Shown here one piece after another: positions 10,036 through 32,599 of a stretch of DNA of 39,261 nucleotides. Source of the DNA: an uncultured Muribaculaceae bacterium (GTDB taxonomy: Bacteria; Bacillota_I; Bacilli_A; RF39; UBA660); assembly GCA_964407175.1 (NCBI GenBank), contig CAYOUK010000002.1, positions 1 to 39,261 of the forward strand, given 5' to 3'. The notes under the pieces were generated by a model, which was given only the letters and a program-made list of their open reading frames with translations, did no database searches and was not told the origin of the DNA. The position numbers and the translations under genes were made by a program. How positions within the stretch are numbered: position 1 is the first letter of the stretch; every line of letters starts with the position of its first letter.

Positions 10036-10060
10036 ATTATCCCTACTTTACATATATAAT

Positions 10061-10069: not shown

Positions 10070-10107
10070 TAGATGTATATCAAATAAAAGCAAAAAAGTG
10101 TATTTTT

Positions 10108-10145
10108 TTATAAAAAAACCTAATTGTTTTTTTACAATTAGGTTT
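10108..10145 (-). terminator. Factor-independent terminator after the giant gene
   Basis: 11-bp perfect stem AAACCTAATTG (10116-10126) / CAATTAGGTTT (10135-10145) with an 8-nt loop, followed on the minus strand by TTTTTATAAAAAAA. The stop codon lies inside the stem. Confidence 0.7.
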
Positions 10146-13100: not shown

Positions 13101-15252
13101 CAGATAAGTCAGCAGCATAAATATGCTTAGTCATAGCTGATATTACCGGCGGCCATCCCCAAGTATCACTTATACTGAACTGTGTTGCAGTTCCTTTCAT
13201 TTGTCGAGCCTGGCTTTCAGGGACTGCTTTAGCGCCACTTAACAATAGTGCTTCTATGCCATCTAAACCTAGGACTTTATCTACACCCTCTGAAACACTT
13301 TTAGATGAAATTAGGGTGAAGAAGGTATCTACTCCATTTTGGAGAAGGTCTGTGGTCATGTCCCCAAATAATCCAGCAGTCTTGACAGATTCTAATAGTT
13401 TATAAGTTTCTATTTGTTCTATTTCTTTAGAATCTAATGGCACTAAATTACCATCTACTATTTTTTTAGATTCTTTCAACATATTTGCTGTTCCATTGTA
13501 ATTTAGACCAGTCGAGTCATAACAACACTCTATTTCTGGATCACAACCACAGCTTTTCATTATTACTTTGTTTTGGTCTGCTACAGGAAGTTTATCGGCT
13601 TTTAACAAATCAATATTTTGATAATTAGTTCTACCATTAGAGTCAGTATATGGTATAACAGCGCGATATCTGTCTAATACGTTTGGAACCTGTATTTGTA
13701 TTGTATTTCTGCGTCCTTCCTCGTCTCCTGAAAGATATACTGTTTCAGCAAAAAGTGTTGGTTTATCTTTAACGTATTCATACCTTAGGGATGCCGCATT
13801 AACGTTACCAAGGATATTACTTATACTGCTGTCGGCGATTTCATTAACTTTGTCATGTATATTACCAATGATATTTAAACTATCAAAAAGACTAATAATT
13901 TGACTTCTACCAATGATGTCGTTTAATTTATTACTAGCATCTTGAAGTGCATTATAAGCACCAAATAAACCTTGGTTAGTTTTTTTATAACAACATTCTT
14001 CTAATGGATTACATGTAATTTCACACTTTGTTAGAATTCCTCCACTTGTGTCACTTCCATGTTCTTTTCCATCCCAATATCCAGTTTTAGTATATGTATA
14101 ATGATCAGGTGTATCTTTACGAATAGTTGAATCATAATGAACCACTACATTACCATTTTCATCTACGTTAGTTTGACTACCACCTGATAACATATCCATA
14201 ATCCTCGAGAATATTCCAGAAAGAAAACCTCCCGTATTACTGTTACTTGTTGCACCGGAGAATGAAGCTCCATCTGCATAACAACAAGTCTTATTTTCAT
14301 CACATGGTTCTACGGTTGGTCCCTCACAAGTATATGCCATTACATATATTACAGGCGAATAGTAAAAGTATGTACAATCAGCAAAAGGTGATGTTATTTG
14401 ATTACACACTGAAATTTCTGTACCAGGAGGTACTGTTGGTAAAAATGAAGAATAATAAGCTTCAGTAGAAGCCTTTTTTCTTTCGACAAGAAATTTTTTC
14501 GCATTGCCATTTCCATAAAAAGGAATACTAAAGTCGCTAGAAGTATAATTTTTTGATAAAGATTTTCCAGAATAACCGCCAGAATATGTAGGTTTTTCAA
14601 AATATAAATCTACTTTTGTCTTAGGCAATAAAGTTGACTTTTCATTAACAGGATAAATTGTTCCTGTTATTGCCCTAGACGCAGTAAAGTCCCAAGCATT
14701 AGTAATATCTTCGTCGCTGTGTGAATTAACACCCGCATTGCTACCTGGAATAATTAATCTAATTTCTGATGTGTTATCTCCACTACCAATTACTTTATAT
14801 ATATAATTGTTTTCATTAGGTGTCCATCCGTTCTCTGATTTTTTGTTAGAATATAAATCTGTTATTTTCTTTAATTGATTCCAGTATTCATCAACGCTCC
14901 AATTATTTTTAAGATCTAACCCTGAAATTGAACCTGAGCAGGTACTGGCATTTTCTACTGTTTGATTTCTTCCATAATTTCCTCCAATAAATGTTAGATG
15001 ATGAGTTGTATTAAAACCTATTGTGCCAGAACAACCAACTCTATAGATATGCTCATCAAATTGAAAGAAATCGTATGGTTCAGAAAGATTCTCGTGAGCG
15101 TCAAAGGAATATTCCCCAGCTCTAAAGAAATAAATATTGTAATAAGTTCTTCCCTGGACACATGAAAAATTATCGGTGTTGTCCATTTCGGCATATACAT
15201 CGATAACAAAACACACTAAAAGAATAAGTAGAATGTTTAATACTTTTTTCAT
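10144..15252 (-). CDS. 1702-aa secreted giant protein of unknown function with four C-x-C-x5-CCY cysteine clusters
   Basis: Uninterrupted 5.1-kb ORF with Sec signal peptide MKKVLNILLILLVCFVIDVYA/EMD. It has no C-terminal TM and no LPXTG. The start overlaps the stop of the upstream gene (ATGA), with SD AAAGGGG upstream. Confidence 0.8.
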   Translation of the reverse strand: MKKVLNILLILLVCFVIDVYAEMDNTDNFSCVQGRTYYNIYFFRAGEYSFDAHENLSEPYDFFQFDEHIYRVGCSGTIGFNTTHHLTFIGGNYGRNQTVENASTCSGSISGLDLKNNWSVDEYWNQLKKITDLYSNKKSENGWTPNENNYIYKVIGSGDNTSEIRLIIPGSNAGVNSHSDEDITNAWDFTASRAITGTIYPVNEKSTLLPKTKVDLYFEKPTYSGGYSGKSLSKNYTSSDFSIPFYGNGNAKKFLVERKKASTEAYYSSFLPTVPPGTEISVCNQITSPFADCTYFYYSPVIYVMAYTCEGPTVEPCDENKTCCYADGASFSGATSNSNTGGFLSGIFSRIMDMLSGGSQTNVDENGNVVVHYDSTIRKDTPDHYTYTKTGYWDGKEHGSDTSGGILTKCEITCNPLEECCYKKTNQGLFGAYNALQDASNKLNDIIGRSQIISLFDSLNIIGNIHDKVNEIADSSISNILGNVNAASLRYEYVKDKPTLFAETVYLSGDEEGRRNTIQIQVPNVLDRYRAVIPYTDSNGRTNYQNIDLLKADKLPVADQNKVIMKSCGCDPEIECCYDSTGLNYNGTANMLKESKKIVDGNLVPLDSKEIEQIETYKLLESVKTAGLFGDMTTDLLQNGVDTFFTLISSKSVSEGVDKVLGLDGIEALLLSGAKAVPESQARQMKGTATQFSISDTWGWPPVISAMTKHIYAADLSAILQVKTCGCNEETECCYDANGNYHYEYAGYNGFRWGATDSKIHYQRIELSDNPYYNRDTFAHSGITGALSAELTTFMQTTTTPVVKCKAYHIDMDYACTVDDYQEVSSGKYIEASPNRIEKDSSGNVIRDYDSWYSQLSRGKATGVGYSILPDSMKSLRYRGMDIVCADAYKITYPGIQDSGQKGQFVTIGNNNSYFTYNREFNNKTIDTRAPIAKIELKKTCVSTKALSTRTFNPTDILVNQVNFNVQHQFFKNYLQYSNLFGIDLDHNQTTDPTERAQIANSITEYIKGNNSSNTPIVKARLYYDDYDTAIKDNQGYIDLDLRAIKCPNLHKQFIEVQAGENGELSLADLGIFCADESGNELTSADDSRSSPVYACSDTTAADLQNETGDSFYERMWAKCAAIPAAEDYADQNVITSLGVNLEKFWYDFLNGFWTVKDYYYKSENIVLYASIPQIIVKGGTAITYMDKFDDSVLAKNSEYVVLPNNSIPIGFDTTSGTKNFRISVDINMGPTRKMPTLDTEKPSKVPQSTWDEWSKASSQVGGIDSEMVSEVSHDNTVDDYSLQNYIKNQGLADKANISSPHEAKTLTSDGYIGSGGTEQYVCSYKVDEDLGNANFFYRTIALSDINPQKRALGANWNYSNLASTKGPYNGLVQRIEAYKASRLAGTGDDSEDNLFKQADNDYQVLTGKDKFTFRLSTPTMRLIRRYNRVKMSIITDNSGTLNNNSAVGGNQRRGYADWSLGIVDYNGLSEEDSDGNVRRFDNADGSTKWIVDFKDTSSSASTTVPDYVYRRYNNQDNNIGYHWYSPFLWCIYYGGNDYCNDIVSPVQTIKYTPEVKQDIKDVFSSYKSDSNQSEEWDLKANIQKLITKQNKLDYEAYKNVTNGEKLIKSEDPTRIYVSMDHVPTLEEFGSLIWTYASTFRDVLSGADQGMFTSEASTVLKRLLSSVGIELNQNGNNLTDDVVSGVVSQMVRDVLGKLSVYE

Positions 15253-15779
15253 TTGTTCTTACCCCTTTTTAATACAAATATAGCTAAAACAAATAATCCA
15301 ATTGTTGCAACTATTAGTCCAATAGTAATTAAAATCTTTTTAGTAGATAGACCATTTGAAACAACAGATCCATCATCGAATACTTTTGTTGCGCCTTTAT
15401 TATAATATGGTAAAAATATTTCTTCAGTTTTAATAGGTTTATTAGTACATCCTTTAAAATAGAAATATATATTGTTTACTCCACCAAATACTTTAGCAGA
15501 TCCATTAGATATAATTTGCGAATTATCTCCTGAATCCATAACTAGTGCCATAAAATTATCATTTAATCCTTCAACAGATATATTTATATATTTAACGGGT
15601 ACTCCATTTTTATCTTTATTAGCAACATTATCGTATTTTATTACATAATTATAATCAATTTCATTTAAAGCTTTTCTATATTCTCTTAAGTTTCCATCAG
15701 CGCATAAGTTTGCAGCGCTAACTAAACTAGGTATAAGTAAAAAAGACATAATTATTACATATGTTAATATTCTTTTCAT
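15249..15779 (-). CDS. Type-I membrane protein of unknown function (signal peptide, ectodomain, C-terminal TM plus KRGKNK tail); paralog of the 234-aa protein
   Basis: Signal peptide ...LLIPSLVSA/AN and C-terminal TM ILITIGLIVATIGLFVLAIFVL. SD AAGGTAGGTG is upstream. It is translationally coupled to the giant gene. Confidence 0.6.
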   Translation of the reverse strand: MKRILTYVIIMSFLLIPSLVSAANLCADGNLREYRKALNEIDYNYVIKYDNVANKDKNGVPVKYINISVEGLNDNFMALVMDSGDNSQIISNGSAKVFGGVNNIYFYFKGCTNKPIKTEEIFLPYYNKGATKVFDDGSVVSNGLSTKKILITIGLIVATIGLFVLAIFVLKRGKNK

Positions 15780-15804
15780 ATTTACACCTACCTTACACTA
15801 AATA

Positions 15805-23117: not shown

Positions 23118-24596
23118 CTAAAAAACGACAGCAATTAAATTATTTGACCCTTTATTTACTATTTTAGTCATAGTAGTGCCTAATTTATACCTTGTATTTT
23201 CTGGCATCATAGCTAGTTTTGCTTCTATTCCTTCCCTAACTATTGAGTGAAGACTTCTGCCAAATATTTCGCTTTCCCAAATGCTGTTTGGATTATTTTC
23301 TCCATCTTTCATTAGATAGTCTACTAGGTCTTTGCTTTCTTTCTCGCTTCCAATAATTGGTTCAAATGTACTTTCTACATCAACCTTTACTAAGTGAATT
23401 GAGCTTGCAATAGCTTTTAACCTAACTCCATATCTACTTCCCTGTTTAATAATCTCTGGTTTATCTAGTTTCATATCTTTTAATTTAGGATATAGTATTC
23501 CATACCCTGTTTTTCTAGCCATCTTGAGTGCTTCTTTAAGTGATTTAGTCTCATCCTCTCCTGAGGAAGAGTCAATAAACATTTTAAGAATAGCACCTTT
23601 ACTAAGTGAATCCTTTCCAACTATCTTTTCTAGCTCCTGCCTATATAATTCATCACTAGCTTCCATTTTAAGTGTAACAATGCCAGTCCCTGCATCTAAA
23701 TTACTAATATAACTATTTTCTATATATGTACAATCATTAAATGCATTTAGTATATTATCAGTATCTTTTAATTTATTTATGTCAGTCATACTTTCTTTTA
23801 TCTTAGTAATAAACTCATGTTTAATTTCATTATTTTGTGGTAAAACATCTACCCAATCAGGAATATCTACACATATATCGTTTATTGGAAATTCCATAAG
23901 TGATAGCTTTAAAACATCATATATATCTTGTATAGACATAGTCTCTATATTAAGTGGTAATACCGGTACTTTATATTCTTCTTCTAAGTCTTTACTTATA
24001 GAAATAGTTTCACTACTACTTGGATGAGATGAATTCATAATAACTATAAATGGTTTATTAATTGCTTTTAGTTCATTTATAACTCTAGATTCTGCTTGTA
24101 TATATTTACCTCTTTTAATCTCTCCAAAAGAGCCATCAGTAGTTACGACAATGCCAATAGTTGCATGATCTTCAATTACTTTTTTGGTACCTATCTCTGC
24201 AGCTTCAACAAATGGTATATCTTCAGTTGACCAAGGAGTTTTAACCATTCTTGGATTACCCATTTCATCTTCATATCCACTTGCCCCATCAATAACATAA
24301 CCAACACAATCGATTAGTTTAATGTTTGTTTTAAAGTTTTCTATTTTAATTTCAGTCCCTGAGGATGGAACAAACTTCGGTTCCGTTGTCATAATCGCTT
24401 TACCTGCACCACTTTGTGGTATTTCGTCTAAGCATCTTTTCTTTTCAAATTCATCATCTATATTTGGAACGACTAAGTTTTCAATAACCTTCTTAATAAA
24501 GGTAGATTTACCAGTCCTAACAGCGCCGACAACCCCTAAGTAGATCTCCCCATTACCTCTAGTTGAAATAGATTTAATAATATTGTTTTTATCCAT
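23118..24596 (-). CDS. spoIVA: Stage IV sporulation protein A (spore coat morphogenetic ATPase)
   Basis: GEIYLGVVGAVRTGKSTFIKK, TTEPKFVP, IIKQGSRYGVRLKA and a C-terminal LIAVVF end are collinear with Bacillus SpoIVA as I recall it. Confidence 0.95.
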   Translation of the reverse strand: MDKNNIIKSISTRGNGEIYLGVVGAVRTGKSTFIKKVIENLVVPNIDDEFEKKRCLDEIPQSGAGKAIMTTEPKFVPSSGTEIKIENFKTNIKLIDCVGYVIDGASGYEDEMGNPRMVKTPWSTEDIPFVEAAEIGTKKVIEDHATIGIVVTTDGSFGEIKRGKYIQAESRVINELKAINKPFIVIMNSSHPSSSETISISKDLEEEYKVPVLPLNIETMSIQDIYDVLKLSLMEFPINDICVDIPDWVDVLPQNNEIKHEFITKIKESMTDINKLKDTDNILNAFNDCTYIENSYISNLDAGTGIVTLKMEASDELYRQELEKIVGKDSLSKGAILKMFIDSSSGEDETKSLKEALKMARKTGYGILYPKLKDMKLDKPEIIKQGSRYGVRLKAIASSIHLVKVDVESTFEPIIGSEKESKDLVDYLMKDGENNPNSIWESEIFGRSLHSIVREGIEAKLAMMPENTRYKLGTTMTKIVNKGSNNLIAVVF

Positions 24597-24666
24597 ATAA
24601 AAATTCCTTTCAATTAATAATACTTAAGTTTTAAGGAATTATGACAAAAAAACTAACTTATCTTTT

Positions 24667-25476
24667 TCATCTTTTCTTTTTTTCTATATCTTTTATACTT
24701 TTATTTGGAGTTGGCATATTTTCTGGCATTGTTCCTCCTGCTTTTTTTATTGCTTTTCTAACAATCTTTCCGACTTCATTATGTGCTTTATTAGCATTAG
24801 ATTCTCCTTCTATTTTTTCTCTTTTCAATTTATCATCAGTTTGAGTAATTCTAAAAAGATTAGCAGCAAGCTCAATACTTCCCATATTATCCAGAATATC
24901 TTCCCTATACCTTAATCCTTTTCTATTGGCACTATCAGCAACAGTCTCTCCATTATATAATCCTTTATACCCTGCATTATGAAAACTATCAAAGTTTTTA
25001 ACGCCGCTTTTTTTTGCGGTTTGATTAAGAGAATAATTGCCCCTTCTTGTCAATGCCCTTTGAAATAATCTTTTGTCATCTTCTGAAATGCTATTATACC
25101 CGATTTCTAATAATTCTTGTTTTCTTGTTTGAACTGCAAAATAAGTCTGTGCCAAAGCCACGACTTCTTTTCTTGGATCAGCATTTTGAGCAATCAAATA
25201 ACAGGCATACCTAGTCAATTTATAACTTTTAACATATTGTGTGTTTCCGTTTCCACCTTTTATCGGTTTCCTAATATCAAGAAACTGTTCATTTAATTCT
25301 TTTTCACTTAAAACACAAGCTATCTTTGCTTTTTTAATAACCTTATGAAAGTTTTCCCACTTGTTATATTCTAGTATTTTCTGTAATTCTCTAGCGTCCC
25401 AATATTCTTTTTTATATTTGTCCATATGTTTAATTTTCTCAAACATACTTTCAGTATTATTAATAATTTCTTTCAT
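24667..25476 (-). CDS. dinD: DNA damage-inducible protein D homolog (Bro-N/KilA-N-like N-domain)
   Basis: RYACYLIAQNADPRKEVVALAQTYFAVQTRKQE, MGSIELAANLFRITQTDDKLKRE and GGTMPENMPTP..SIK match E. coli DinD blocks from memory. Strong SD AGGAGG. Confidence 0.8.
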   Translation of the reverse strand: MKEIINNTESMFEKIKHMDKYKKEYWDARELQKILEYNKWENFHKVIKKAKIACVLSEKELNEQFLDIRKPIKGGNGNTQYVKSYKLTRYACYLIAQNADPRKEVVALAQTYFAVQTRKQELLEIGYNSISEDDKRLFQRALTRRGNYSLNQTAKKSGVKNFDSFHNAGYKGLYNGETVADSANRKGLRYREDILDNMGSIELAANLFRITQTDDKLKREKIEGESNANKAHNEVGKIVRKAIKKAGGTMPENMPTPNKSIKDIEKKKR

Positions 25477-25527
25477 ATAACCTCCTAATATTATTATTCA
25501 GGAGTTTTTTGATTTTTCTCATAAAAA

Positions 25528-25543
25528 AAGAGGATAACCTCTT
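25528..25543 (-). terminator. Short terminator hairpin after the 788-aa gene
   Basis: AAGAGG (25528-25533) pairs with CCTCTT (25538-25543) with a 4-nt loop, followed on the minus strand by TTTTTTATGAG. The stop codon is inside the stem. The stem is only 6 bp. Confidence 0.45.
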
Positions 25544-27908
25544 ATTTTATTATTTCAAAATGCATACCATGATAAACCTTCATAGAATCCCCTGGTTTAT
25601 ATTTTTCTCCATTTGATGAATCAACAGAGTATTTTACATTTTTCTTCTTAGGTAATTTATATGTAGAACCCTCTTCTTCAAGATACTTGTATTTATTCTT
25701 TTCCGTTACTTTATCTTCAGAAGTAGTAACCATCCACATAGTTTTACCTTTAATATTAGTTATTGGTTTTTTATACATAGATTCATTCATTTGGTTTTCT
25801 TTTAAATATACTTTAAATTTATCTAGAGTTATGTAATCATAATCGACAAGCAGTTTTATTTCTCTTGCTCTTAAACCTTCATAAAGGTTTCTTGGAAGAG
25901 TATCTTTAAATGTATCATATGTATAATCGTTAGCCTTTAGTATTTCATTTCTTATCTCTGGCCACTTAATATTTTTATCAAAACCATATAGATTAGATAA
26001 AGATACTTCATCATCTGTCGTTAATACATCATTTGCGATTAAGTTATAATTATTTGTAGTAACTACATGGTAATACTTAATCGGTTTGTTAATTTTTTCT
26101 ATGTTTTCAACAGCGACTGTTTCTAAAGTGCCATCTTCACTTACTTTAGCTATCTTGATTCCTTTTTTAAATGATTTACTTGCAGTATTTATAAATTCAT
26201 ACTTATCCATATCGAATAGTCCATGTTTTTTAACAACATTTAAAATGGTTCCATCTGATAAAGTAATTTTAGTGTAAGAAGATTCAGTTTCCTCTTTTTC
26301 CACCCATATTGGATATGCACTACCTTCCTTACCTTCAGTATAATTCCAAACTGAAACTAGGTCGTTGTAGTCAATATCTTCAATACGTTTATATGAACCA
26401 TCAGCCATTTTAATAAGTGTTCCTTCAGCGAGGCAACCACCACCACCAGAAGCTTCACCTGATATTACAACTTTACCAGTTACAGAAGCAATTTTAAAAG
26501 TATAATTTTGATTACTATTTCTAGTATACGTATACTGACTTGTTGTAAGTGTTCTACCACCCATTGTAACTGAATCAAGTGATGATGGGACCGTATATAA
26601 TCCAGAGGCAGTAATATTAAATTCTAATGCATCACCAGCTTCAACTTCACTAGGACCAGTATTAGAAAGATTAGTTAATTTATAAGTAACAGTGTATTTC
26701 CAAGAAAGTCTTGTATCACTACTTTTAGATGCATAACCAGAAGCAGTTGTTGCTCCATCGATAGTTTGAGCATCCGGTTCTTTATCTAGTGTATCTCTAC
26801 CATATACAAGGGCATAATAATCTAAGCCACCTTTTACTCCTTTAAATGGAATTGATGTTTCACTTCCTGTTGTCTGTTTTTCCTCAACGAGTGTTCCATC
26901 TTTTTTATATAATCTTACTGTGTAATATTTAATTCCACTTTCATCAGTGCCACTCCAAGAAACTGTTGCAGAACCCGCAGTTGTTTCTTTAGCAATTGTA
27001 ACATCTGAAATAACTGGTGGACCAGAATCATTTAAAGATGCGTCTATATCTACAGATACAGATACATTACCAGCAGCTGATGATGGTAAATCTGTCGATT
27101 TAATCATTACTGTAACTGATTGAGGACTTGAAGCAAAACCTGTTTGATTTAGTCTAGTTATATAGAATGTATAGTTTTGTGTATCCCCTGCTGCTATGTT
27201 GTAACTAAGAGGATTACCAGAAGCATCAGTAATACTAAAGTTATTTGTATCTGTTGGAGCTAGTGTAAATGTCTTAGCACTTTGATATGAATTAATTACA
27301 CTTACTGTGTATGGACCAGCGATAGTATTGTTCCCTGTTAAATCTCCAGTTGCGCCATCTGCAATACTTCCAAGTAAACTTCCGTATAATTCTGGAGTTG
27401 TATCGGTATCTAGAGATGCATCCGCAGAATATGAACCACTGTTATCAAGTGGAGTAAGGGTTACTCTGACTGCAAAAGTTCTAGATGTTCTAGAAGGTAT
27501 CTTCTCCCCTTCTTCTATATCTTCAAAAGTAAAATCAATTGTAGCATTTGCAGTATCACCAAAATCTATATCTGGTGTAAACTTATCTGATCCAAAAGTA
27601 TAATCATAAAAACTATCATTAGATATAGTTATATTATATACAGCATAATATGTATCATTCATACCATTTCCACTAAAAGCAAAATGGAAATCTATATTTT
27701 CGTCTGAAAAACTAGGATTTTCAGTATTAGTTAAGTTATTATTATCAGTTAATATTACATTACTAATTCTAATCTTACCTTGAGTAGTAATAATAGTTGT
27801 TCCACGCGCAAAAAGGCTTGCCCCATAAGTGGCAAAACCTACCCCAGAAAACACAACAAATAATATAACTATTAAAAATATTGAAATTTGTACTATTTTA
27901 TTTTTCAC
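25542..27908 (-). CDS. Large exported fibre-associated protein: SipW-type leader, TasA-like N-domain, Ig/FN3 domains, Hint domain, unknown C-domain
   Basis: The leader ends in GVGFATY, the same motif as the 191-aa subunit. An FN3-like segment spans aa ~297-378 (SATVSWSGT...YYTVRLY...YYALVYG). GGGG/CLAEGTLI at aa 488-499 starts a Hint fold. The GTG start forms a GTGA overlap with the upstream stop. Confidence 0.75.
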   Translation of the reverse strand: MKNKIVQISIFLIVILFVVFSGVGFATYGASLFARGTTIITTQGKIRISNVILTDNNNLTNTENPSFSDENIDFHFAFSGNGMNDTYYAVYNITISNDSFYDYTFGSDKFTPDIDFGDTANATIDFTFEDIEEGEKIPSRTSRTFAVRVTLTPLDNSGSYSADASLDTDTTPELYGSLLGSIADGATGDLTGNNTIAGPYTVSVINSYQSAKTFTLAPTDTNNFSITDASGNPLSYNIAAGDTQNYTFYITRLNQTGFASSPQSVTVMIKSTDLPSSAAGNVSVSVDIDASLNDSGPPVISDVTIAKETTAGSATVSWSGTDESGIKYYTVRLYKKDGTLVEEKQTTGSETSIPFKGVKGGLDYYALVYGRDTLDKEPDAQTIDGATTASGYASKSSDTRLSWKYTVTYKLTNLSNTGPSEVEAGDALEFNITASGLYTVPSSLDSVTMGGRTLTTSQYTYTRNSNQNYTFKIASVTGKVVISGEASGGGGCLAEGTLIKMADGSYKRIEDIDYNDLVSVWNYTEGKEGSAYPIWVEKEETESSYTKITLSDGTILNVVKKHGLFDMDKYEFINTASKSFKKGIKIAKVSEDGTLETVAVENIEKINKPIKYYHVVTTNNYNLIANDVLTTDDEVSLSNLYGFDKNIKWPEIRNEILKANDYTYDTFKDTLPRNLYEGLRAREIKLLVDYDYITLDKFKVYLKENQMNESMYKKPITNIKGKTMWMVTTSEDKVTEKNKYKYLEEEGSTYKLPKKKNVKYSVDSSNGEKYKPGDSMKVYHGMHFEIIK

Positions 27909-28945
27909 TTGCCATCACTCTTTAATATATATTGCCATGCATTAGTATCACTAATAAGTGTGAAATAGCAAACCCCAGTTCTTTCATTTTCATAATAATT
28001 AATAGGCATTCTTATTTCACTATGAGCATCTATTAATTCATCAAATGATTCTGTTTTAATAACACTTAATCCATCTAAATCAGGATTATTCTTAACATTT
28101 ACTATTATACTATCATATGTACTAAGTATTTTCTTTTTAGTAATCTCAAATTTATGTCTATGCTCTACTTCTTTTTTTATTCTATACATACAAGCTATTA
28201 CATAAATGCTTATTAGTATAAACAGTACACCAACAGCTTTAAATAGTAAATATTTAGCATCATGTTTTTTAACTACTGTTTCTATTTTTTTATTTGTATT
28301 ATTATTATCTTTATCTATGTTTGCTTCAACTGCTAGAGATGATAATGGAATATTAAACCCAAGTGATGAATTAATTGGTTTTAAATCCATACTATTGTTT
28401 GTTAAATTATTAGTTACTTTTAAATATACTGATAATTTACCATCTAATGATAATCCCATCGCTGTCTTGAAATCATTTAATATACCATTAAATTTATTAT
28501 AATCCACCTTTATTGAATTTGAAATCAAATAATTACTAGCATTATTAATCTCTATTGTTTGTTTATCAGATAGAGGATAATCTTTTGTCCAATATACTCC
28601 ATCTTCACCATTCGGTTTACTAGCTTCTATAGTAGCCATAATATAGTACTCATATGTACCACTAACTTCTTTATCAAATTCAATATTGTAGTTATAATCC
28701 ACATTAATATAATCAATTAAGTTTGTTATATACGTTTTGTTTTCTTCTAAGTATGGCTCATCAAAGAAGTCATTTGGTTTAAGATAAACCTTATATTTAA
28801 CATCTGATTTACTTGTATCATATGTAAGAAAAATAGTTTCATTGTTGTCAAAACCTTTAGATAGGAAAAATACACCACATCCAAGAAAACACAAAGATAT
28901 AATTGTCAAAATAACATATGTAAATGTAATCTTCTTTGATTTCAT
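27905..28945 (-). CDS. Two-TM accessory membrane protein (architecture like DUF5305-type SipW-neighbour proteins)
   Basis: TM1 at aa ~9-28, a ~200-aa ectodomain, TM2 at aa ~233-253 and a ~90-aa cytoplasmic tail. SD AAGGGA is upstream. It is translationally coupled to the downstream gene. The DUF5305 call is recollection only. Confidence 0.5.
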   Translation of the reverse strand: MKSKKITFTYVILTIISLCFLGCGVFFLSKGFDNNETIFLTYDTSKSDVKYKVYLKPNDFFDEPYLEENKTYITNLIDYINVDYNYNIEFDKEVSGTYEYYIMATIEASKPNGEDGVYWTKDYPLSDKQTIEINNASNYLISNSIKVDYNKFNGILNDFKTAMGLSLDGKLSVYLKVTNNLTNNSMDLKPINSSLGFNIPLSSLAVEANIDKDNNNTNKKIETVVKKHDAKYLLFKAVGVLFILISIYVIACMYRIKKEVEHRHKFEITKKKILSTYDSIIVNVKNNPDLDGLSVIKTESFDELIDAHSEIRMPINYYENERTGVCYFTLISDTNAWQYILKSDGK

Positions 28946-28967
28946 GTCTTTTCCCTTTCTATTTTTT

Positions 28968-30089
28968 TTAATCTATTACTTCTCTAACCCATATGGTTGG
29001 ATATCCTATGTATTTAACTACATATTTTACTTTACCCAAAACCGCCTGATTTGTTATTTTAATATTATCTGGTGTGTTATTGGCATCACCTTTTGTAACG
29101 ATGGTAACTTGATCACCGTTTTTCTTGATAGAATGTATTCTGTGTGTTACTACTATTCCGTTTCTATTAAATGCGATTACTTCACCATTTCTAAGTTTAC
29201 TTGGTTCTATCTTTTCATATATAACTGCATCACCTTTATAGAATGCTGGAACCATTGAATTTGAACCAATCGCTAAGATCTTATATTTAAACAATCCAGT
29301 GATAAGCGATATCATAACAAATGCAAATATTGCAATTGGTACCATTACTATCCACCTAGAAGCCCTTTTACTGTAAATTGCTCCTTTCTCTTTATAGTTA
29401 ATCGTCTTCCTCGAGAAAAAGTATACAGTATATGGCATAAGTACGTGAACAACACTATTAATGTAATTGCCGACATTTGGAATTAATGGCGTAAAGAACG
29501 CGTAAAATAAAGGCACTATTCTATAAACCATACCTGGTAAATAACTAACTTTATAAGTTAGATATGAACAAAGTGTTTGTTTTGCAATCGCGGGAACTAT
29601 AACGACACAAACGAAAATGAATATCATTTCTCTACTATGCAAATTATAACCTTTTATTTGCATTACAATATCTAATATTATAAGTATTAAAGTATATATT
29701 ATTAAAGGCTTTTTATTCTTTTGCCCATTTCTTGCAATAATATATCTTATTAATTCTTCAGATATAACAAGTACTATATCTAGTAACAGATAATTAAATA
29801 TATTGGACCATGTAAAATATATTGCATTTCTACTAAATCCCATAAAAAATCCAAAGAAGAATATAATAAGTAGAAACGCTAAAAGTGTAGCAATAACAAC
29901 TCTTACTACATTTCCCTTAGTATAATTATTATCTTTCATTACACCATATTTAATAGCCATAAAAATAGCCATCATTAAAAATAGTAATGTAATTACTAGT
30001 AAGTTGTTATTTTGATTAACTCTATTAGATATTATAATAAAAATAAATAATATTATTTCTATTAAGTATAGTCCTCTTATTCTTTTCAT
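28968..30089 (-). CDS. ER/archaeal-type (SipW-like, S26B) signal peptidase I fused to an N-terminal ~245-aa polytopic membrane domain
   Basis: The C-terminal ~130 aa read GSNSMVP (catalytic Ser box), VVTHRI (His box) and TKGDANNTPD, as in SipW/Sec11-type peptidases. The N-terminal part has about 6-8 predicted TM helices. The start is uncertain: ATG 30089 (MKRIRG...) is preferred over the track's TTG at 30107. Confidence 0.7.
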   Translation of the reverse strand: MKRIRGLYLIEIILFIFIIISNRVNQNNNLLVITLLFLMMAIFMAIKYGVMKDNNYTKGNVVRVVIATLLAFLLIIFFFGFFMGFSRNAIYFTWSNIFNYLLLDIVLVISEELIRYIIARNGQKNKKPLIIYTLILIILDIVMQIKGYNLHSREMIFIFVCVVIVPAIAKQTLCSYLTYKVSYLPGMVYRIVPLFYAFFTPLIPNVGNYINSVVHVLMPYTVYFFSRKTINYKEKGAIYSKRASRWIVMVPIAIFAFVMISLITGLFKYKILAIGSNSMVPAFYKGDAVIYEKIEPSKLRNGEVIAFNRNGIVVTHRIHSIKKNGDQVTIVTKGDANNTPDNIKITNQAVLGKVKYVVKYIGYPTIWVREVID

Positions 30090-30118
30090 TGCAATCATCT
30101 CTTTCAATAAAACAAATC

Positions 30119-30145
30119 ACTATCTGCCTATAAAAGGCAGATAGT
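30119..30145 (-). terminator. Stem-loop between the subunit gene and the signal peptidase gene (attenuator or stabiliser)
   Basis: 10-bp perfect stem ACTATCTGCC (30119-30128) / GGCAGATAGT (30136-30145) with a 7-nt loop, followed on the minus strand by GATTTGTTTTATTG. Confidence 0.5.
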
Positions 30146-30173
30146 CACTTGTAAATCTATATATTAATTATGA

Positions 30174-30749
30174 TTATGATGATTGCGTAGATTGTGAATT
30201 AGCATCTTCGTAATATAGAGATGCAGTTAGAGTAATTGTTTGATCTGTACTTGGTAAGTCGCTAGAGCTTTCAGGTTGTAAGTATTCAACTCTTACCTTA
30301 ACTGGCTTACTAGTGTTTTTAGCTAAAGCTATGTTTAAATTATTATTAGTTGCAGTATATTCTGTACCATCATAGTATACTGAATATTTTAAATATTTAG
30401 CTTGTTCTGCAGTTAATGCAGTCATAGTTAATTTCTTTAATACAGCGTCGATAGTACCAAAGTTTTTAGCATCTGCTGTTGCTTCATAGAAGTCACCTGG
30501 TTCATTTAGTGTTACTGTAAATGTCCAATCAGTAGCAGTTAAAGTGCTAGGGTTAGCAGTAACGCTTCCTGTTAGTGGTGTAATTCCTTTTTCAGTATCA
30601 TACTGAACTTTCCATTCAGATTTTTTAACTGTAGCAGTACCGTTAATGTTAAGTGTTTGTGTATAAGTCGCAAAACCTACTGACATTACAAGTATAGCAA
30701 CAGCTAATACCGCAATAATAATTGTTTGTGTACTCTTTTCTTTTTTCAT
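30174..30749 (-). CDS. TasA/CalY-like (M73-fold-like) secreted fibre subunit candidate
   Basis: The leader MKKEKSTQTIIIAVLAVAILVMSVGFA/TY is followed by TLNINGTATV and LNEPGDFYEATADAKNFGTIDAVL. This resembles the TasA/camelysin L.PGD....F.v.N.G...A block. Very strong SD AGGAGGAG. It has its own promoter and is the first gene of the operon. Confidence 0.55.
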   Translation of the reverse strand: MKKEKSTQTIIIAVLAVAILVMSVGFATYTQTLNINGTATVKKSEWKVQYDTEKGITPLTGSVTANPSTLTATDWTFTVTLNEPGDFYEATADAKNFGTIDAVLKKLTMTALTAEQAKYLKYSVYYDGTEYTATNNNLNIALAKNTSKPVKVRVEYLQPESSSDLPSTDQTITLTASLYYEDANSQSTQSS

Positions 30750-30775
30750 AATTTCTCCTCCTATTTTCTATAAAA

Positions 30776-30805
30776 ATTTTATCACAAATAGTGGCTTTTC
30801 GTCAA
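30776..30805 (-). promoter_or_regulatory. Sigma-A type promoter of the fibre operon
   Basis: The minus strand reads TTGACG (complement of 30800-30805), an 18-nt spacer, then TGATAAAAT, an extended -10 (TAAAAT is the complement of 30776-30781). It directly follows the terminator of the HerA-like gene. Confidence 0.55.
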
Positions 30806-30810
30806 TATAA

Positions 30811-30835
30811 AAAACCACTACTTTATAGTGGTTTT
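30811..30835 (-). terminator. Factor-independent terminator after the HerA-like gene
   Basis: AAAACCACT (30811-30819) pairs with AGTGGTTTT (30827-30835) with a 7-nt loop, followed on the minus strand by TTATATT. Confidence 0.6.
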
Positions 30836-30838
30836 ACT

Positions 30839-32599
30839 TTATTGCCATGCTTTTGCAACATCTGCATTAGAACTGTATGGCGTTGGATTAGGCATTTGTA
30901 GTTTCGTTATAAGTGGTATTTGGAATGCAGAACCAAAGCTTATACAAATACCTGGTTGCAAGCTAGAAAGCTTTTTAATTATATCTACACTCATGCCCGG
31001 AAGCATTTTTTCAATGTAATTAACATCCGCTGGATGGGTTGTTTTAAATATTAAGAAATTTGAAATCTGTGAAATAACAGTGTCAGATAATTCGACAGGT
31101 CTTTGACTAATAATGTCAAGTAAGACACCATATTTACGCCCTTCTTTAGCAATACGTTCAAATATATTATAACCAATTAAGAAATTATCCTTATCATTTT
31201 GAACATATCTATGTGCTTCTTCTAAGAATAAATGGAATGGAATACTTGCTCTTTCAGGTCTGCTCTTAGCAAAATCGAAGAACATTCTAGCAAATATCTT
31301 AACTATTACTTTAGCAAGTTGGTCATCTATACCTTCTAAGTTAATATTAACTATTTGACAACGTTTATTGTCTTGTACAACTAATCTTGATATATATTGT
31401 TCTAGTGTAATAAAGTCTGGATAGTTAAATAATCTTTTATTAGTTGAATTAACTATTGAATGAAGTCTAACTTGAAGCATAGTTGCTGCATTTTGAAATT
31501 GAGAGTTTTCTTGAATGCCTTCACTGATAAGAGTAAATTCTAAAGCAGTTTCAAAATCTTCTATAGAAAAATACTGATTATCTTCTGGCATATTATTCTC
31601 TAGGCTTTCATCTAAGAATGATGAAATATATTGATTAATTAATACAGATTCAGAGAATTGCCCATTAGAATCTATTTCAAAACAATCAGCAAGACTTCTT
31701 GTAAATCCAACACCTTGTAGCTGCGCATTAAAGTTAAACTGTGGTGTATTTGTTTTATTAAGTAGTTTAAATACTTCGTTCTTTTTTCCAGAGTTTGTTA
31801 AACTAGAGAAAAGAATCGCTGTTAAAGCCTTTGCAATTAAGTGGTTTTTTAAACTTAAACTTCCCTCATCTTTTCTTGCAAAAATTCTAACAAGTTTTAA
31901 CGCTCTTTCAAGAAGCGTCATTTGTGAATGTTCTGTTGCATTAAGCATAAGAGCAATATCATCTAGAGTTAGAAGATAAATTGGTATTGATAAATCTTCA
32001 TCTGTTGGTTCTTGTTTATTAGAAGTTATAAATTTATAGTTATAATTAGCATTTAATTGACTTATGTTTCTAAAAGCATTTTTATATTCACCATATGCGT
32101 CGAAGAATATTAAATTAGCACTTTTAACTACCATTTCAGGATTAGAAAAGATATTTTGGATGATTCTTGCTGTTGCACATGATTTACCTGAACCAGATGA
32201 TCCAAGCACTGCAAAGTGATTAGAAAATAAAGCATTAACATCTACATACATTGGATAATTATTATATAAAGGCGTATATCCAAGTAAAAACTCCCCTGGT
32301 CCTTTATCTCCGATTAGTATTTTTAACTCTGCTTCATTAATAAGTCTTAGTTTAGAATCAAGGGTTGGTTTTTTAACTATACCTGGAACAAATTTATTAT
32401 CAGTTGAAAACTCACCTAATAATTTAACTGTTAATGTTTCATCGTTAATATCATCTACTTCCCCTAGTATTCTTTGTTGACCACTCATAAAAATCACATG
32501 TAGGTTCATCAAATCTGGCATTGCATTACCAGTTTTATTAAGAGAAACAACAGCGTTATCATCAGATATTTTAAGTATATTTCCAAACACTCTAACCAT
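30839..32599 (-). CDS. HerA/FtsK-superfamily ATPase (DUF87-like), orphan
   Basis: An N-terminal beta-barrel-like region (GNILKISDDNAVVSL...ILGEVDDI) is followed by Walker A AVLGSSGSGKSC and Walker B FHLFLEEAHRYV, with C-terminal GICISFGSAF. This is the HerA layout. The start is uncertain: ATG 32599 has a poor SD and GTG 32590 is possible. Confidence 0.65.
   Translation of the reverse strand: MVRVFGNILKISDDNAVVSLNKTGNAMPDLMNLHVIFMSGQQRILGEVDDINDETLTVKLLGEFSTDNKFVPGIVKKPTLDSKLRLINEAELKILIGDKGPGEFLLGYTPLYNNYPMYVDVNALFSNHFAVLGSSGSGKSCATARIIQNIFSNPEMVVKSANLIFFDAYGEYKNAFRNISQLNANYNYKFITSNKQEPTDEDLSIPIYLLTLDDIALMLNATEHSQMTLLERALKLVRIFARKDEGSLSLKNHLIAKALTAILFSSLTNSGKKNEVFKLLNKTNTPQFNFNAQLQGVGFTRSLADCFEIDSNGQFSESVLINQYISSFLDESLENNMPEDNQYFSIEDFETALEFTLISEGIQENSQFQNAATMLQVRLHSIVNSTNKRLFNYPDFITLEQYISRLVVQDNKRCQIVNINLEGIDDQLAKVIVKIFARMFFDFAKSRPERASIPFHLFLEEAHRYVQNDKDNFLIGYNIFERIAKEGRKYGVLLDIISQRPVELSDTVISQISNFLIFKTTHPADVNYIEKMLPGMSVDIIKKLSSLQPGICISFGSAFQIPLITKLQMPNPTPYSSNADVAKAWQ

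What the first reader, a model, noticed from the sequence alone, without database searches (positions are those of the whole stretch)
25542..30805. TasA/SipW-like fibre operon with non-canonical composition
Seen: a good sigma-A promoter (30776-30805) drives four genes. They are a 191-aa secreted TasA/camelysin-like subunit, a SipW-type signal peptidase (fused to a membrane domain), a two-TM accessory protein and a 788-aa multidomain exported protein. The last two junctions are tightly spaced or overlapping (GTGA at 27905-27908). Established: in Bacillus the tapA-sipW-tasA operon builds biofilm fibres, and SipW-type peptidases are dedicated to such substrates. Inference: here the TapA slot seems to be filled by a much larger FN3/Hint protein plus a DUF5305-like membrane protein. 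That suggests a different anchoring or nucleation mechanism for a TasA-like fibre.
Basis: partly seen in the sequence, partly recalled or inferred. Interest (0 to 1): 0.7.

Follow-up and report, generated by a model that had tools for sequence, protein, structure and literature searches.

The report
AbpX/TasA-type fibre operon with Hint subunit
A conserved four-gene cassette in an uncultured low-GC Firmicute most likely builds a TasA/AbpX-type surface fibre; this kind of locus was described in 2025-26, but here the minor subunit carries a conserved self-cleaving Hint domain not reported for such fibres.

Summary
Four co-oriented genes (30749-25542, minus strand) lie between two terminators, behind the best promoter-like site in the region.

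- **g1** (191 aa) has no Pfam or NCBIfam hit. Its model matches best the TasA fibre, archaeal bundling pili and Sulfolobus threads. Its predicted mature N-terminus, TYTQTLNING, mirrors the AbpX donor strand QWSETLSLSA.
- **g2** is an archaeal/ER-type signal peptidase I (TIGR02228) behind about 9 transmembrane helices.
- **g3** is DUF5305, the proposed peptidase accessory of archaeal Tafi and AbpX loci.
- **g4** (788 aa) starts with a g1 paralogue (hhalign 98%), followed by Ig-FN3-Ig, a Hint/BIL domain and a conserved C-terminal domain.

The g1-g2-g3 order recurs in all 11 other distinct loci examined, with unrelated flanks. A g4 homologue follows in all 11.

So this is a TasA-superfamily fibre locus of the AbpX/Tafi type, not a Bacillus tapA-sipW-tasA variant. 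DUF5305 does not fill the TapA slot; g4 plausibly does.

Two things appear new. The pilin family is uncurated (7116 cluster representatives). The minor subunit carries a Hint domain whose Cys492 is invariant, even in five Hint-less homologues that end just after it. Polymerisation and Hint chemistry remain inferred.

The parts
30811..30835 (-). Intrinsic terminator of the upstream herA-like gene. It marks the 5' boundary of the unit.
   Evidence: 11-bp stem followed by a T run. Sequence read.
30776..30805 (-). Sigma-A-type promoter candidate, TTGACG-18-TAAAAT, with a TG extended -10.
   Evidence: best match in 24500-31500 (10 of 12, and the only site with TG). Promoter-like sites as a class are not enriched there, so the support is positional only.
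30757..30762 (-). AGGAGG ribosome-binding site, 7 nt upstream of the g1 ATG.
   Evidence: Read directly from the sequence.
30174..30749 (-). g1, the presumed major fibre subunit (191 aa). Sec signal peptide aa 1-27 (30749-30669), predicted cleavage VGFA|TY, donor-strand-like segment TYTQTLNINGT aa 28-38 (30668-30636), beta-sandwich aa ~46-182.
   Evidence: Invariant residues M22, G25, A27, L33 and G37. AF2 pLDDT 87.5. Top PDB fold hits are 8AUR, 7UEG and 7PNB. hhalign to AbpX gives probability 55%, E 1.2e-4.
30119..30145 (-). Hairpin with a T-tract between g1 and g2. Presumed attenuator or partial terminator (or mRNA stabiliser) that would keep the major subunit in excess.
   Evidence: 11-bp stem, 5 GC pairs; the intergenic fold is -27.3 kcal/mol, and 7 of 8 homologous loci have a hairpin of different sequence at the same place.
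28968..30089 (-). g2, a dedicated signal peptidase I (373 aa from ATG 30089; the ORF list starts it at TTG 30107). About 9 TM helices (29349-30089) precede a C-terminal archaeal/ER-type catalytic domain (28971-29348).
   Evidence: TIGR02228 84.6 bits (cut-off 51.85); SipW equivalog 58 bits (cut-off 190); hydropathy; invariant S278-M-x-P, G286-D287, T315-H316-R317, K333-G-D335-x-N337 and D341, plus E112 and R115 in the membrane part; 247 homologues; nearly all of the 120 listed are 365-392 aa.
27905..28945 (-). g3, a DUF5305 protein (346 aa): TM1 aa 11-29, extracellular part, TM2 aa 233-251, cytoplasmic tail. Presumed accessory subunit of the signal peptidase (TafG-like).
   Evidence: PF17231 at 4.5e-12, 46.3 bits (cut-off 29); two TM segments. 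The role is proposed in PMC11821415, PMC12337348 and bioRxiv 10.64898/2026.01.04.697558.
27363..27908 (-). g4 N-terminal part: signal peptide and donor-strand-like segment (aa 1-36, SGVGFA|TYGASLFARG), then a g1-paralogous beta-sandwich (aa 46-182).
   Evidence: hhalign A1 against A2 gives probability 98.1%, E 8e-14 (g1 1-162 aligned to g4 1-157); the g1 HMM hits only g1 and g4 in the window. AF2 model.
26454..27350 (-). g4 stalk: Ig-like (aa 187-285), FN3 (aa 299-372), Ig-like (aa 393-485).
   Evidence: secondary structure, pLDDT 75-93. (FN3/Ig arrays among the fold hits). (weak fn3 hit). (fn3 above threshold in the L003 homologue).
26013..26435 (-). g4 Hint / bacterial intein-like domain (aa 492-632). 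The Cys492 codon is at 26435-26433, preceded by GGGG.
   Evidence: BIL2 6Y75/6TMM, target-normalised TM 0.79, rmsd 2.6-3.1 A, 22-23% identity. C492, T497, H562, N622 and D632 invariant in 15 of 15 long forms; C492 also present in 5 of 5 short forms; translation check; this is the most conserved part of g4.
25545..26012 (-). g4 C-terminal domain (aa 633-788): a helical segment (aa 652-706) and a small beta domain (aa 723-787). Function unknown; conserved, not polymorphic.
   Evidence: model. (26-76% identity, similar to the rest of the protein); no match in PDB sequences, Pfam or phage records.
25528..25543 (-). Terminator hairpin overlapping the g4 stop codon. It marks the 3' boundary of the unit.

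Best explanation
The cassette most likely encodes a self-contained apparatus for a donor-strand-complemented surface or matrix fibre of the TasA superfamily, of the AbpX/Tafi locus type.

**Proposed steps**
1. g1 is made in excess. It has a strong ribosome-binding site, and a hairpin separates it from the downstream genes.
2. g1 is exported by Sec and cut after the invariant G-F-A (A27|T28). The cut is made by g2, an archaeal-type Ser/His signal peptidase with about 9 TM helices, working with the DUF5305 protein g3.
3. Cleavage frees the conserved amphipathic N-terminal strand TYTQTLNING. This strand inserts into the beta-sandwich of the next subunit to form the filament.
4. g4 carries the same cleavage site, the same strand and a g1-like sandwich. 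It would therefore join the filament as the single minor subunit (initiator, tip or base), presenting an Ig-FN3-Ig stalk.
5. The g4 Hint domain converts the bond before Cys492 into a thioester. This at least cleaves off the Hint and C-terminal module. It may instead transfer the fibre-bound fragment to another nucleophile.

**Shown here:** gene order and its conservation, domain identities, catalytic residues, g1/g4 paralogy, and fold similarity.

**Inferred:** cleavage by g2, polymerisation, the position of g4 in the fibre, and the Hint chemistry.
For: - **Conserved unit.** The g1-g2-g3 order recurs in all 11 other distinct loci examined, with unrelated flanks, and a g4 homologue follows in all 11 (cut by the contig end in L013).
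- **g1 fold.** The only three PDB hits with E below 1e-3 are the TasA fibre 8AUR, the P. calidifontis bundling pilus 7UEG and the S. acidocaldarius thread 7PNB. Chaperone-usher pilins follow.
- **g1 and AbpX.** hhalign to AbpX gives probability 55%, E 1.2e-4 over 129 columns that include the cleavage site and donor strand. Against TasA the probability is 1.7%.
- **Donor-strand motif.** AbpX reads QWSETLSLSAT and g1 reads TYTQTLNINGT.
- **Conservation.** The N-terminal segment is among the most conserved parts of the family: G25, A27, L33 and G37 are invariant. g4 shares it.
- **g2.** It passes TIGR02228 and keeps the Ser/His/Asp boxes invariant.
- **g3.** It passes the DUF5305 threshold. That family is the proposed peptidase partner in Tafi and AbpX loci. 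The Tafi peptidase TafD was shown genetically to be needed for pilin processing and for fimbriae.
- **Hairpin after g1.** It is conserved in position but not in sequence.
- **Hint.** The fold match is strong, the catalytic Cys and His are invariant, and it is the best conserved region of g4.
Against: - No oligomer could be modelled or observed.
- Fold matches for g1 are weak in TM-score (0.33-0.43) and high in rmsd. Many beta-sandwiches share the PGD...N.G motif.
- No significant sequence link to any solved fibre subunit was found. The A1 profile against PDB sequences gave AbpX at E 0.49, and the 55% hhalign probability is only moderate.
- g1 has Gln where AbpX-like proteins have the calcium-binding acidic residue, and it is less acidic (pI 4.7, 11% Asp+Glu).
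- The g1-type domain also heads many longer proteins that carry enzyme-like or LRR C-termini, with no peptidase found within the fetched flanks. That pattern also fits a general sorting or display module.
- g4 has no wall or membrane anchor motif, so how the fibre is retained on the cell is unexplained.
Confidence: 0.65

Rival explanations
1. This is a dedicated sorting and display system, not a polymer. The g1-type N-terminal module (signal peptide plus beta-sandwich) would be a tag recognised and cut by the specialised peptidase g2/g3, comparable to the cognate signals of sortases or exosortases. g1 and g4 would then be monomeric surface or secreted proteins.
For: The g1-type domain is always N-terminal. 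It heads thousands of proteins (7116 cluster representatives), many with unrelated C-terminal domains such as DUF285/LRR, NAGPA, DUF4886, DUF6273 and ALK_LTK_GRD. One MAG carries at least four such proteins, with no peptidase found within the fetched flanks. Polymerisation is not shown.
Against: A short stand-alone 180-190-aa form, strongly expressed and always first in the cassette, fits a structural subunit better than a tag. The top fold hits are specifically donor-strand filaments. The motif conserved after the cleavage site matches the AbpX donor strand, and a leader that is discarded or a mere cleavage site would not need ten conserved mature residues. The two readings can also coexist: the fused proteins could be alternative tip subunits.
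Confidence: 0.17
2. g4 is a fibre- or surface-displayed polymorphic toxin or effector. The Hint domain would release the C-terminal about 150 aa as a toxin, as proposed for Hint domains in bacterial polymorphic toxin systems.
For: A Hint domain sits just upstream of a C-terminal domain of unknown function. Papers on polymorphic toxin systems turned up in the Hint literature search (PMC3113570 and PMC3239186 are listed). The proposed toxin-releasing role of Hint domains is my own recollection; those papers were not read here.
Against: The C-terminal domain is not polymorphic. It is 26-76% identical across homologues, tracking the rest of the protein. No conserved downstream immunity-like gene exists: downstream genes differ in every locus, and a terminator follows g4. 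The C-terminal domain matched nothing in Pfam, PDB sequences or phage records. Whole-g4 scans against Pfam and NCBIfam also showed no toxin family.
Confidence: 0.05
3. This is a true orthologue of the Bacillus tapA-sipW-tasA (or C. perfringens sipW-bsaA) operon in which TapA has been replaced.
For: It has an ER-type peptidase like SipW, a fold-level TasA hit, and a minor subunit sharing the N-terminal strand, as TapA is thought to.
Against: No Peptidase_M73 hit appears in g1 or in any of the 40 family members scanned. There is no TIGR04088 hit. The SipW equivalog scores far below its cut-off. hhalign to TasA gives probability 1.7%. The peptidase has about 9 extra TM helices, and DUF5305 is present; both are traits of AbpX/Tafi loci.
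Confidence: 0.05
4. The cassette makes a spore-associated appendage or coat component, suggested by its position beside spoIVA.
For: spoIVA lies about 1 kb downstream of the cassette, at 23118-24596; it was identified from its translation (identification from memory).
Against: The flanks differ in every other locus: rpsB/tsf, mur ligases, polA and others. The promoter resembles sigma-A, not a sporulation sigma. A separate transcription unit (dinD-like) and terminators lie in between.
Confidence: 0.03

Closest known systems
AbpX-like biomatrix fibril loci of archaea and Bacillota/Chloroflexota (P. abyssi AbpX; bioRxiv 10.64898/2026.01.04.697558)
   Same: - Small Sec-exported pilin with an SPase I site.
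- Mature N-terminus with an aromatic at position 2 and the pattern x-[WY]-[ST]-x-T-L-x-[LI].
- Dedicated TIGR02228-type signal peptidase with many TM helices (10 reported; about 9 predicted here).
- DUF5305 accessory with the same two-TM topology.
- Extra pilin-like minor or tip subunits predicted to co-assemble by donor-strand complementation.
   Different: - Sequence similarity is only marginal (hhalign 55%; hmmsearch E 0.49).
- Position 4 of the donor strand is Gln, not the calcium-binding Asp/Glu.
- g1 is less acidic (pI 4.7, 11% Asp+Glu, against about 4.0 and about 15%).
- No SLH, LPXTG, sortase or signalling genes are present.
- The single minor subunit carries a Hint/BIL domain plus a conserved C-terminal domain, which that paper does not mention (no occurrence of 'Hint' or 'intein').
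Archaeal Tat-fimbriae / Tafi bundling pili (TafA/E, TafD, TafG, TafC/F; PMC11821415, PMC12337348)
   Same: A donor-strand pilin, a dedicated signal peptidase I (TafD, genetically required for processing and filament formation), a DUF5305 protein (TafG), and larger variable structural subunits, all in one cluster.
   Different: - Tafi pilins are mostly Tat substrates; g1 and g4 have no twin-arginine motif.
- TafD has an N-terminal peptidase domain and 4 TM helices; g2 has about 9 TM helices and a C-terminal peptidase domain.
- No TafB-type regulator is present here.
- No hit to DUF1102, the family of the Thermococcus/Archaeoglobus relatives, was seen among g1 relatives.
Bacillus subtilis TapA-SipW-TasA and C. 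perfringens SipW-BsaA (PMC7395162, PMC11580942)
   Same: - An ER-type Ser/His signal peptidase dedicated to a matrix-fibre subunit.
- A fibre formed by N-terminal strand donation (TasA 8AUR is the top fold hit).
- An accessory subunit sharing the N-terminal strand.
   Different: - g1 is not in Peptidase_M73 and lacks the TIGR04088 signal.
- The peptidase is about twice as long, with a polytopic domain.
- DUF5305 is present.
- The gene order is pilin first.
- No TapA homologue is present.
Bacterial intein-like (BIL) / Hedgehog-type Hint domains, e.g. Tetrahymena BUBL BIL2 (PDB 6Y75/6TMM; PMC8616854) and type B BILs (PMC4031507)
   Same: - Hint fold (target-normalised TM 0.79 to BIL2).
- N-terminal Cys and block-B His are invariant.
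- The domain is followed by a further conserved region, as Hint is followed by SRR/ARR in Hog proteins (PMC2362128).
- BIL2 shows that such a domain can ligate its N-terminal partner to a lysine amine without ATP.
   Different: - There is no C-terminal His-Asn; the domain ends T-x-D, like type B BILs, which mainly cleave.
- It sits at the end of a Sec-exported pilin-like protein.
- The Pfam Hint models score below threshold.
- No chemistry has been tested.

Membership tests
TasA / camelysin (Pfam PF12389 Peptidase_M73) | Significant match to the PF12389 profile | tested here: not met
   No hit for g1 at E up to 0.1 or up to 1 (table for member 1). The family is not among the 25 most-matched families for the 40 members scanned. 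Only P0174, a distant three-domain relative, gives a sub-threshold 20.2 bits against a cut-off of 22.5.
TasA / camelysin (Pfam PF12389 Peptidase_M73) | SipW-dependent-type signal peptide (NCBIfam TIGR04088) | tested here: not met
   No NCBIfam hit for g1, and only an intein hit for g4, at E up to 0.1.
TasA superfamily (fold level: TasA, AbpA, thread, Tafi, AbpX) | Jelly-roll or beta-sandwich subunit resembling solved donor-strand fibres | tested here: inconclusive
   The top three PDB hits are 8AUR, 7UEG and 7PNB (E 4e-4 to 9e-4, probability 1.00), but TM is only 0.33-0.43 and rmsd 9-12 A. The model includes the uncleaved leader.
TasA superfamily (fold level: TasA, AbpA, thread, Tafi, AbpX) | Polymerisation by insertion of the N-terminal strand into the next subunit | not testable with these tools
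   No multimer prediction was available. Indirect support: residues 28-45 are not assigned to any strand in the monomer model, and the segment is highly conserved.
AbpX-like clade | Detectable sequence homology to AbpX | tested here: inconclusive
   hhalign probability 55%, E 1.2e-4 over 129 columns. hmmsearch of the A1 profile against PDB sequences gives 9sj2 AbpX at E 0.49.
AbpX-like clade | [quoted passage not shown] | tested here: not met
   Tyr is at position 2, but the consensus at position 4 is Gln. Mature pI is 4.69 and Asp+Glu is 11%.
AbpX-like clade | Locus with a multi-TM TIGR02228 signal peptidase, a DUF5305 protein and pilin-like minor or tip subunits | tested here: met
   The layout is as described in bioRxiv 10.64898/2026.01.04.697558.
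Archaeal Tafi | Twin-arginine (Tat) signal on the pilins, and a TafD-type peptidase (N-terminal catalytic domain, 4 TM helices) | tested here: not met
   The g1 and g4 leaders (MKKEKSTQ..., MKNKIVQ...) have no RR motif. The g2 catalytic domain is C-terminal, after about 9 TM helices.
Signal peptidase I, archaeal/ER type (NCBIfam TIGR02228) | Score above the curated cut-off, and Ser/His/Asp catalytic boxes | tested here: met
   84.6 bits against a cut-off of 51.85. Invariant SxSMxP, GD, THR and KGDxN...D in 24 homologues.
SipW proper (NCBIfam NF046067) | Equivalog score above the cut-off | tested here: not met
   58.4 bits against a cut-off of 190.
DUF5305 (Pfam PF17231; TafG-like) | Profile match above the gathering score, and a two-TM topology with an extracellular middle part | tested here: met
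   46.3 bits against a cut-off of 29, covering profile positions 1-214 of 217. TM segments at aa 11-29 and 233-251.
Hint / bacterial intein-like domain | Hint fold with an N-terminal Cys/Ser nucleophile and a block-B His | tested here: met
   BIL2 6Y75/6TMM at target-normalised TM 0.79, rmsd 2.6-3.1 A. C492 and H562 are invariant in 15 of 15 long forms. Pfam Hint models alone are below threshold (16.8 bits against 29.7).
Hint / bacterial intein-like domain | C-terminal His-Asn plus a +1 nucleophile (true intein or type A BIL, capable of splicing) | tested here: not met
   The domain ends ...T630-x-D632, and D632 is invariant. There is no Cys downstream, because g4 has a single Cys.
Hint / bacterial intein-like domain | Autoprocessing at the N-terminal junction | not testable with these tools
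   This needs expression and mass spectrometry of g4 and of the C492A and H562A mutants.

The most novel reading that the evidence does not exclude
The Hint/BIL domain of g4 turns the bond before Cys492 into a thioester, and the conserved C-terminal domain acts like the Hedgehog SRR/ARR. It would direct transfer of the fibre-bound N-terminal fragment to a specific nucleophile. That nucleophile could be a peptidoglycan or teichoic-acid amine or hydroxyl on the producing cell, or a group on a target surface.

This would be a sortase-independent, ATP-independent way to attach a Gram-positive fibre covalently. It is comparable to BIL2-mediated isopeptide ligation in Tetrahymena.

The same Cys is kept at the extreme C-terminus of the Hint-less forms. 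That would point to a second, thiol-based way of making the same link.
Probability: 0.15. Interest if true: 0.85.

Novelty: new variant of a known kind. Interest (0 to 1): 0.55.

Why it matters
TasA-type donor-strand fibres have only recently been recognised as a cross-domain class of biofilm and bundling filaments. Their bacterial diversity outside Bacillus and Clostridium is barely charted.

This cassette adds three things:
- **A large uncurated pilin family.** It has thousands of cluster representatives and no Pfam model. It occurs in uncultured low-GC Firmicutes/'Bacilli' MAGs and uses the archaeal-style machinery (multi-TM signal peptidase I plus DUF5305).
- **A Hint domain on the minor subunit.** Its catalytic residues are invariant, and it is the best conserved part of that protein.
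- **A testable anchoring question.** How such fibres are held on Gram-positive cells is an open question for TasA/TapA and AbpX. A Hint-generated thioester is a concrete, testable candidate for attachment or regulated release.

The g1-type N-terminal module fused to many different C-terminal domains also suggests a general fibre-based display system.

Tried and rejected
- **Related loci from the g1 alignment:** The search for related loci failed because the alignment had no sufficiently conserved stretch. The single-protein scan gave only 8 loci.
- **g1 against PDB sequences:** neither the single sequence nor the profile gave a significant hit.
- **g1 model against viral structures:** the job was submitted, but the server did not answer. 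It was of little relevance.
- **g4 C-terminal domain and g2 membrane domain:** Pfam gave nothing for either. PDB sequences gave nothing for the g4 C-terminal domain.
- **tblastn against phage and plasmid records:** the g4 Hint plus C-terminal region found nothing in phage records, and g1 found nothing in plasmid records.
- **Organism name:** the cluster look-up returned no names. The host can only be described as an uncultured low-GC (about 30%) Firmicute that carries spoIVA.
- **CPBP/CAAX-protease idea for the g2 membrane domain:** rejected. The invariant motif is EExxR rather than EExxxR, and there are no invariant His motifs.
- **Intein-insertion explanation for the C-terminal Cys of short g4 forms:** rejected. 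Long forms have no Cys/Ser/Thr-initiated C-extein resembling the short-form tails, and g4 has a single Cys.
- **Disulfide partner within the operon:** unlikely. g1 has no Cys, and the g3 cysteines lie in TM or cytoplasmic segments.

Full report
**1. What is in the sequence**

- g1, 30749-30174, 191 aa
- g2, 30107-28968
- g3, 28945-27905, 346 aa
- g4, 27908-25542, 788 aa

The g3 stop and the g4 GTG start overlap as GTGA at 27908-27905.

The promoter-like site TTGACG-18-TGaTAAAAT (30805-30776) is the best in a 7-kb scan and the only one with an extended -10. Such sites are no more frequent there than in shuffled sequence (36 found, 42.8 expected). Its weight therefore comes from position alone. 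It lies between the terminator of the upstream herA-like gene (30835-30811) and an AGGAGG site 7 nt before the g1 ATG.

Terminator-like hairpins are enriched (9 found, 1.8 expected). One overlaps the g4 stop (25543-25528). Another lies between g1 and g2 (30145-30119).

Homologues of g2 align from its residue 7, so ATG 30089 is the likelier start.

The surrounding window is chromosomal. It carries topA, an LtaS-like sulfatase, rnhB, scpA/B, smc and rnc by Pfam hits, and spoIVA by its translation (from memory). GC content is about 30%.

**2. The four proteins**

*g1.* It has no Pfam or NCBIfam hit. Scans of 40 relatives give only scattered weak beta-sandwich matches and no Peptidase_M73.

It belongs to a large uncurated family. 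A word-indexed search found 202 relatives, mostly unnamed or called hypothetical, and 150-201 aa long among those listed. A profile search of 1.84 billion representatives found 7116 at E up to 1e-3 and 4003 at E up to 1e-10.

Among the best 150 hits the domain is nearly always at the N-terminus. About a third of them are longer proteins (300-880 aa). Those scanned have C-terminal parts such as DUF285/LRR, NAGPA, DUF4886, DUF6273 and ALK_LTK_GRD.

The alignment shows invariant M22, G25, A27, L33 and G37. This gives a leader ending ...M-S-V-G-F-A, followed by x-Y-x-Q-x-L-x-I-x-G. Small residues at -3 and -1 fit a type I signal peptidase site.

The AF2 model is confident for the sandwich (mean pLDDT 87.5). 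It assigns residues 28-45 to no strand.

A Foldseek search of the PDB gives only three hits below 1e-3: the TasA fibre 8AUR, the Pyrobaculum bundling pilus 7UEG and the Sulfolobus thread 7PNB. Chaperone-usher pilins follow. TM-scores are low, at 0.33-0.43.

*g2.* It passes the archaeal/ER-type signal peptidase I model TIGR02228 (84.6 bits, cut-off 51.85). It fails the SipW equivalog (58 bits, cut-off 190).

In 24 homologues the SxSMxP, GD, THR and KGDxN...D boxes are invariant. This is the Ser/His type (my reading, from memory, of the His in the THR box where bacterial-type enzymes have Lys).

The catalytic domain follows a membrane domain of about 250 aa. The hydropathy scan finds seven TM segments before the catalytic domain. 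Reading the sequence by eye suggests about nine. This domain has its own invariant residues (E112, R115 and others) and no Pfam match. The architecture is conserved: nearly all of the 120 listed homologues are 365-392 aa.

*g3.* It passes DUF5305 (46.3 bits, cut-off 29). It has two TM segments flanking an extracellular part of about 200 aa.

*g4.* Its N-terminus is a paralogue of g1. hhalign of the two family alignments gives probability 98.1%, E 8e-14, with g1 1-162 aligned to g4 1-157. The shared region includes the ...VGFA|TY... site.

In the window, the g1 HMM hits only g1 and g4.

The AF2 model (pLDDT 82.5) shows these parts:
- a leader helix
- a disordered segment, aa 23-41
- a beta-sandwich, aa 46-182
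- Ig-like, FN3 and Ig-like domains, up to aa 485
- a Hint domain, aa 492-632
- a helical segment, aa 652-706
- a small beta domain, aa 723-787

The Hint domain superposes on the Tetrahymena BIL2 domain (6Y75/6TMM) at target-normalised TM 0.79, rmsd 2.6-3.1 A and 22-23% identity.

**3. Conservation of the unit**

The order g1, g2, g3 is found in every locus recovered around g1 or g4 relatives:
- L001/L002, L003/L004, L005 and L006
- L013-L016
- the P0132 locus and L017

Counting L001 and L002 separately, because their upstream flanks differ, that is 11 other distinct loci. A g4 homologue follows in all 11, although the L013 contig ends 100 aa into it.

Flanking genes are unrelated between loci (rpsB/tsf, mur ligases, polA and others), so the cassette is the conserved entity.

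The g1-g2 spacer carries a strong hairpin of different sequence in 7 of 8 comparison loci. This fits an attenuator or mRNA stabiliser that keeps the first gene product in excess (inference).

g4 varies in length in a modular way:
- 280 aa: sandwich plus one Ig-like domain
- 493-535 aa: through the last Ig-like domain
- 720-794 aa: with Hint and all or part of the C-terminal domain
- one 1100-aa form with an extra N-terminal region

**4. The Hint module**

In 15 of 15 long forms, C492, T497, H562, N622 and D632 are invariant.

Hint is the best conserved part of g4: 40-70% identity, against 30-77% for the N-terminal part. The C-terminal domain tracks the rest of the protein at 26-76%. It is therefore not a polymorphic toxin tip.

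Cys492 is the only cysteine in g4.

The domain ends T-x-D rather than His-Asn. It therefore resembles type B BILs, which cleave rather than splice (PMC4031507).

BIL2 provides a precedent for a BIL domain that ligates its upstream partner to a lysine amine without ATP (PMC8616854). Hedgehog-type Hog proteins provide a precedent for a region after Hint that selects the adduct (PMC2362128).

One finding is unexplained. The same Cys is kept in five Hint-less homologues, from at least three lineages, which stop one or two residues after it (C-GG, C-G, C-T, C-NN). These short forms sit in the same cassette.

**5. Comparison with known systems**

A literature search on DUF5305 led to two systems.

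*Archaeal Tafi.* The signal peptidase TafD is required for pilin processing and fimbriae. The DUF5305 protein TafG is proposed as its partner (PMC11821415, PMC12337348).

*AbpX.* This 2026 preprint reports AbpX-like loci in archaea and in Bacillota/Chloroflexota. They contain a ten-TM TIGR02228 signal peptidase, a DUF5305 'SPase I accessory', AbpX-like minor subunits and tip proteins predicted to co-assemble by donor-strand complementation. The window's cassette has exactly this layout.

Using the AbpX sequence from the preprint's supplement, hhalign against the g1 family gives probability 55%, E 1.2e-4 over 129 columns. That span runs from the cleavage site through most of the sandwich. TasA gives 1.7%.

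The AbpX donor strand QWSETLSLSAT and g1 TYTQTLNINGT share the pattern aromatic-2, T-L, [LI]. However, g1 has Gln where AbpX-like proteins have the calcium-binding acidic residue. g1 is also less acidic.

The preprint does not mention Hint or intein. No paper in the searchable library combines 'Hint domain' and 'TasA'.

**6. Interpretation**

The best reading is a TasA-superfamily, AbpX/Tafi-type fibre cassette with four roles:
- g1 as major subunit
- g2 and g3 as the dedicated processing complex
- g4 as the single pilin-like minor subunit, with a stalk and a self-processing Hint module

It is wrong in family assignment and in calling the composition non-canonical. DUF5305 belongs with the peptidase, not in the TapA slot.

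Whether g4 initiates, caps or anchors the fibre is open. Whether Hint merely sheds the C-terminal module or ligates the fibre to something is also open. The modular loss of everything beyond the first two g4 domains in some lineages favours a tip or initiator role with lineage-specific add-ons (inference).

**7. Limits**

- No multimer modelling was possible.
- Fold similarity for g1 is specific in ranking but weak in TM-score.
- The AbpX link is moderate.
- All mechanistic steps after gene and domain identification are inferred.

Noticed in passing
window 3000-15800 (minus strand): A second surface-appendage locus that looks like a Tad/Flp-type pilus cluster. It has a CpaF-like T2SSE ATPase (6645-7934), a sub-threshold RcpC/CpaB-like protein (7947-8819), DUF5411 (8859-9272) and further ORFs without a significant Pfam hit (4927-6652). 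It also has a 1702-aa ORF (10144-15252) with no Pfam or PADLOC match.
   Followed up: partly
window 30839-32599 and 24667-25476: The cassette is flanked by defence-associated genes. One is a HerA-type ATPase (PADLOC HerA 2e-104; NCBIfam antiphage HerA models below cut-off) with no obvious partner gene. The other is a DinD/PDC-S13-like protein (NF008573 1e-97). This suggests a variable island between topA and spoIVA.
   Followed up: partly
g4 homologues P0131-P0134 and L003:10812-12293: Short g4 forms (493-535 aa) lack the Hint and C-terminal module. They nevertheless keep the Hint nucleophile Cys as the second- or third-to-last residue (C-GG, C-G, C-T, C-NN). No explanation was found.
   Followed up: partly
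L017:3830-4970: In this homologous cassette the g2 equivalent is called as two overlapping ORFs: a 209-aa membrane part and a 181-aa Peptidase_S26 part. This is either a natural split of the fusion or a frameshift.
   Followed up: no
L015:1-6877: Directly upstream of the cassette lie two short SipW-like peptidases (194 and 193 aa), a 464-aa ORF and an ORF of more than 2242 aa with no Pfam hit on record. This may be a second peptidase-dependent surface system.
   Followed up: no
L007, L008, L009 (three contigs of MAG JAZRPV01); also L010-L012: One MAG carries at least four proteins with the g1-type N-terminal domain fused to different C-terminal regions (219-431 aa). No g2 or g3 homologue was found within the fetched flanks. 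This hints that the domain is a general display or co-assembly module.
   Followed up: partly
P0174 (480 aa): This protein has three tandem g1-like domains. It gives the only sequence hint, below threshold, of a link to Peptidase_M73/TasA (E 5.6e-4, 20.2 bits against a cut-off of 22.5).
   Followed up: no
L006 and P0129: Two cassette or g4 homologues come from MAGs labelled Candidatus Saccharibacteria. P0129 (1100 aa) has an extra region of about 300 aa at its N-terminus in place of the usual leader. Either the system extends beyond Firmicutes or the contigs were mis-binned.
   Followed up: no
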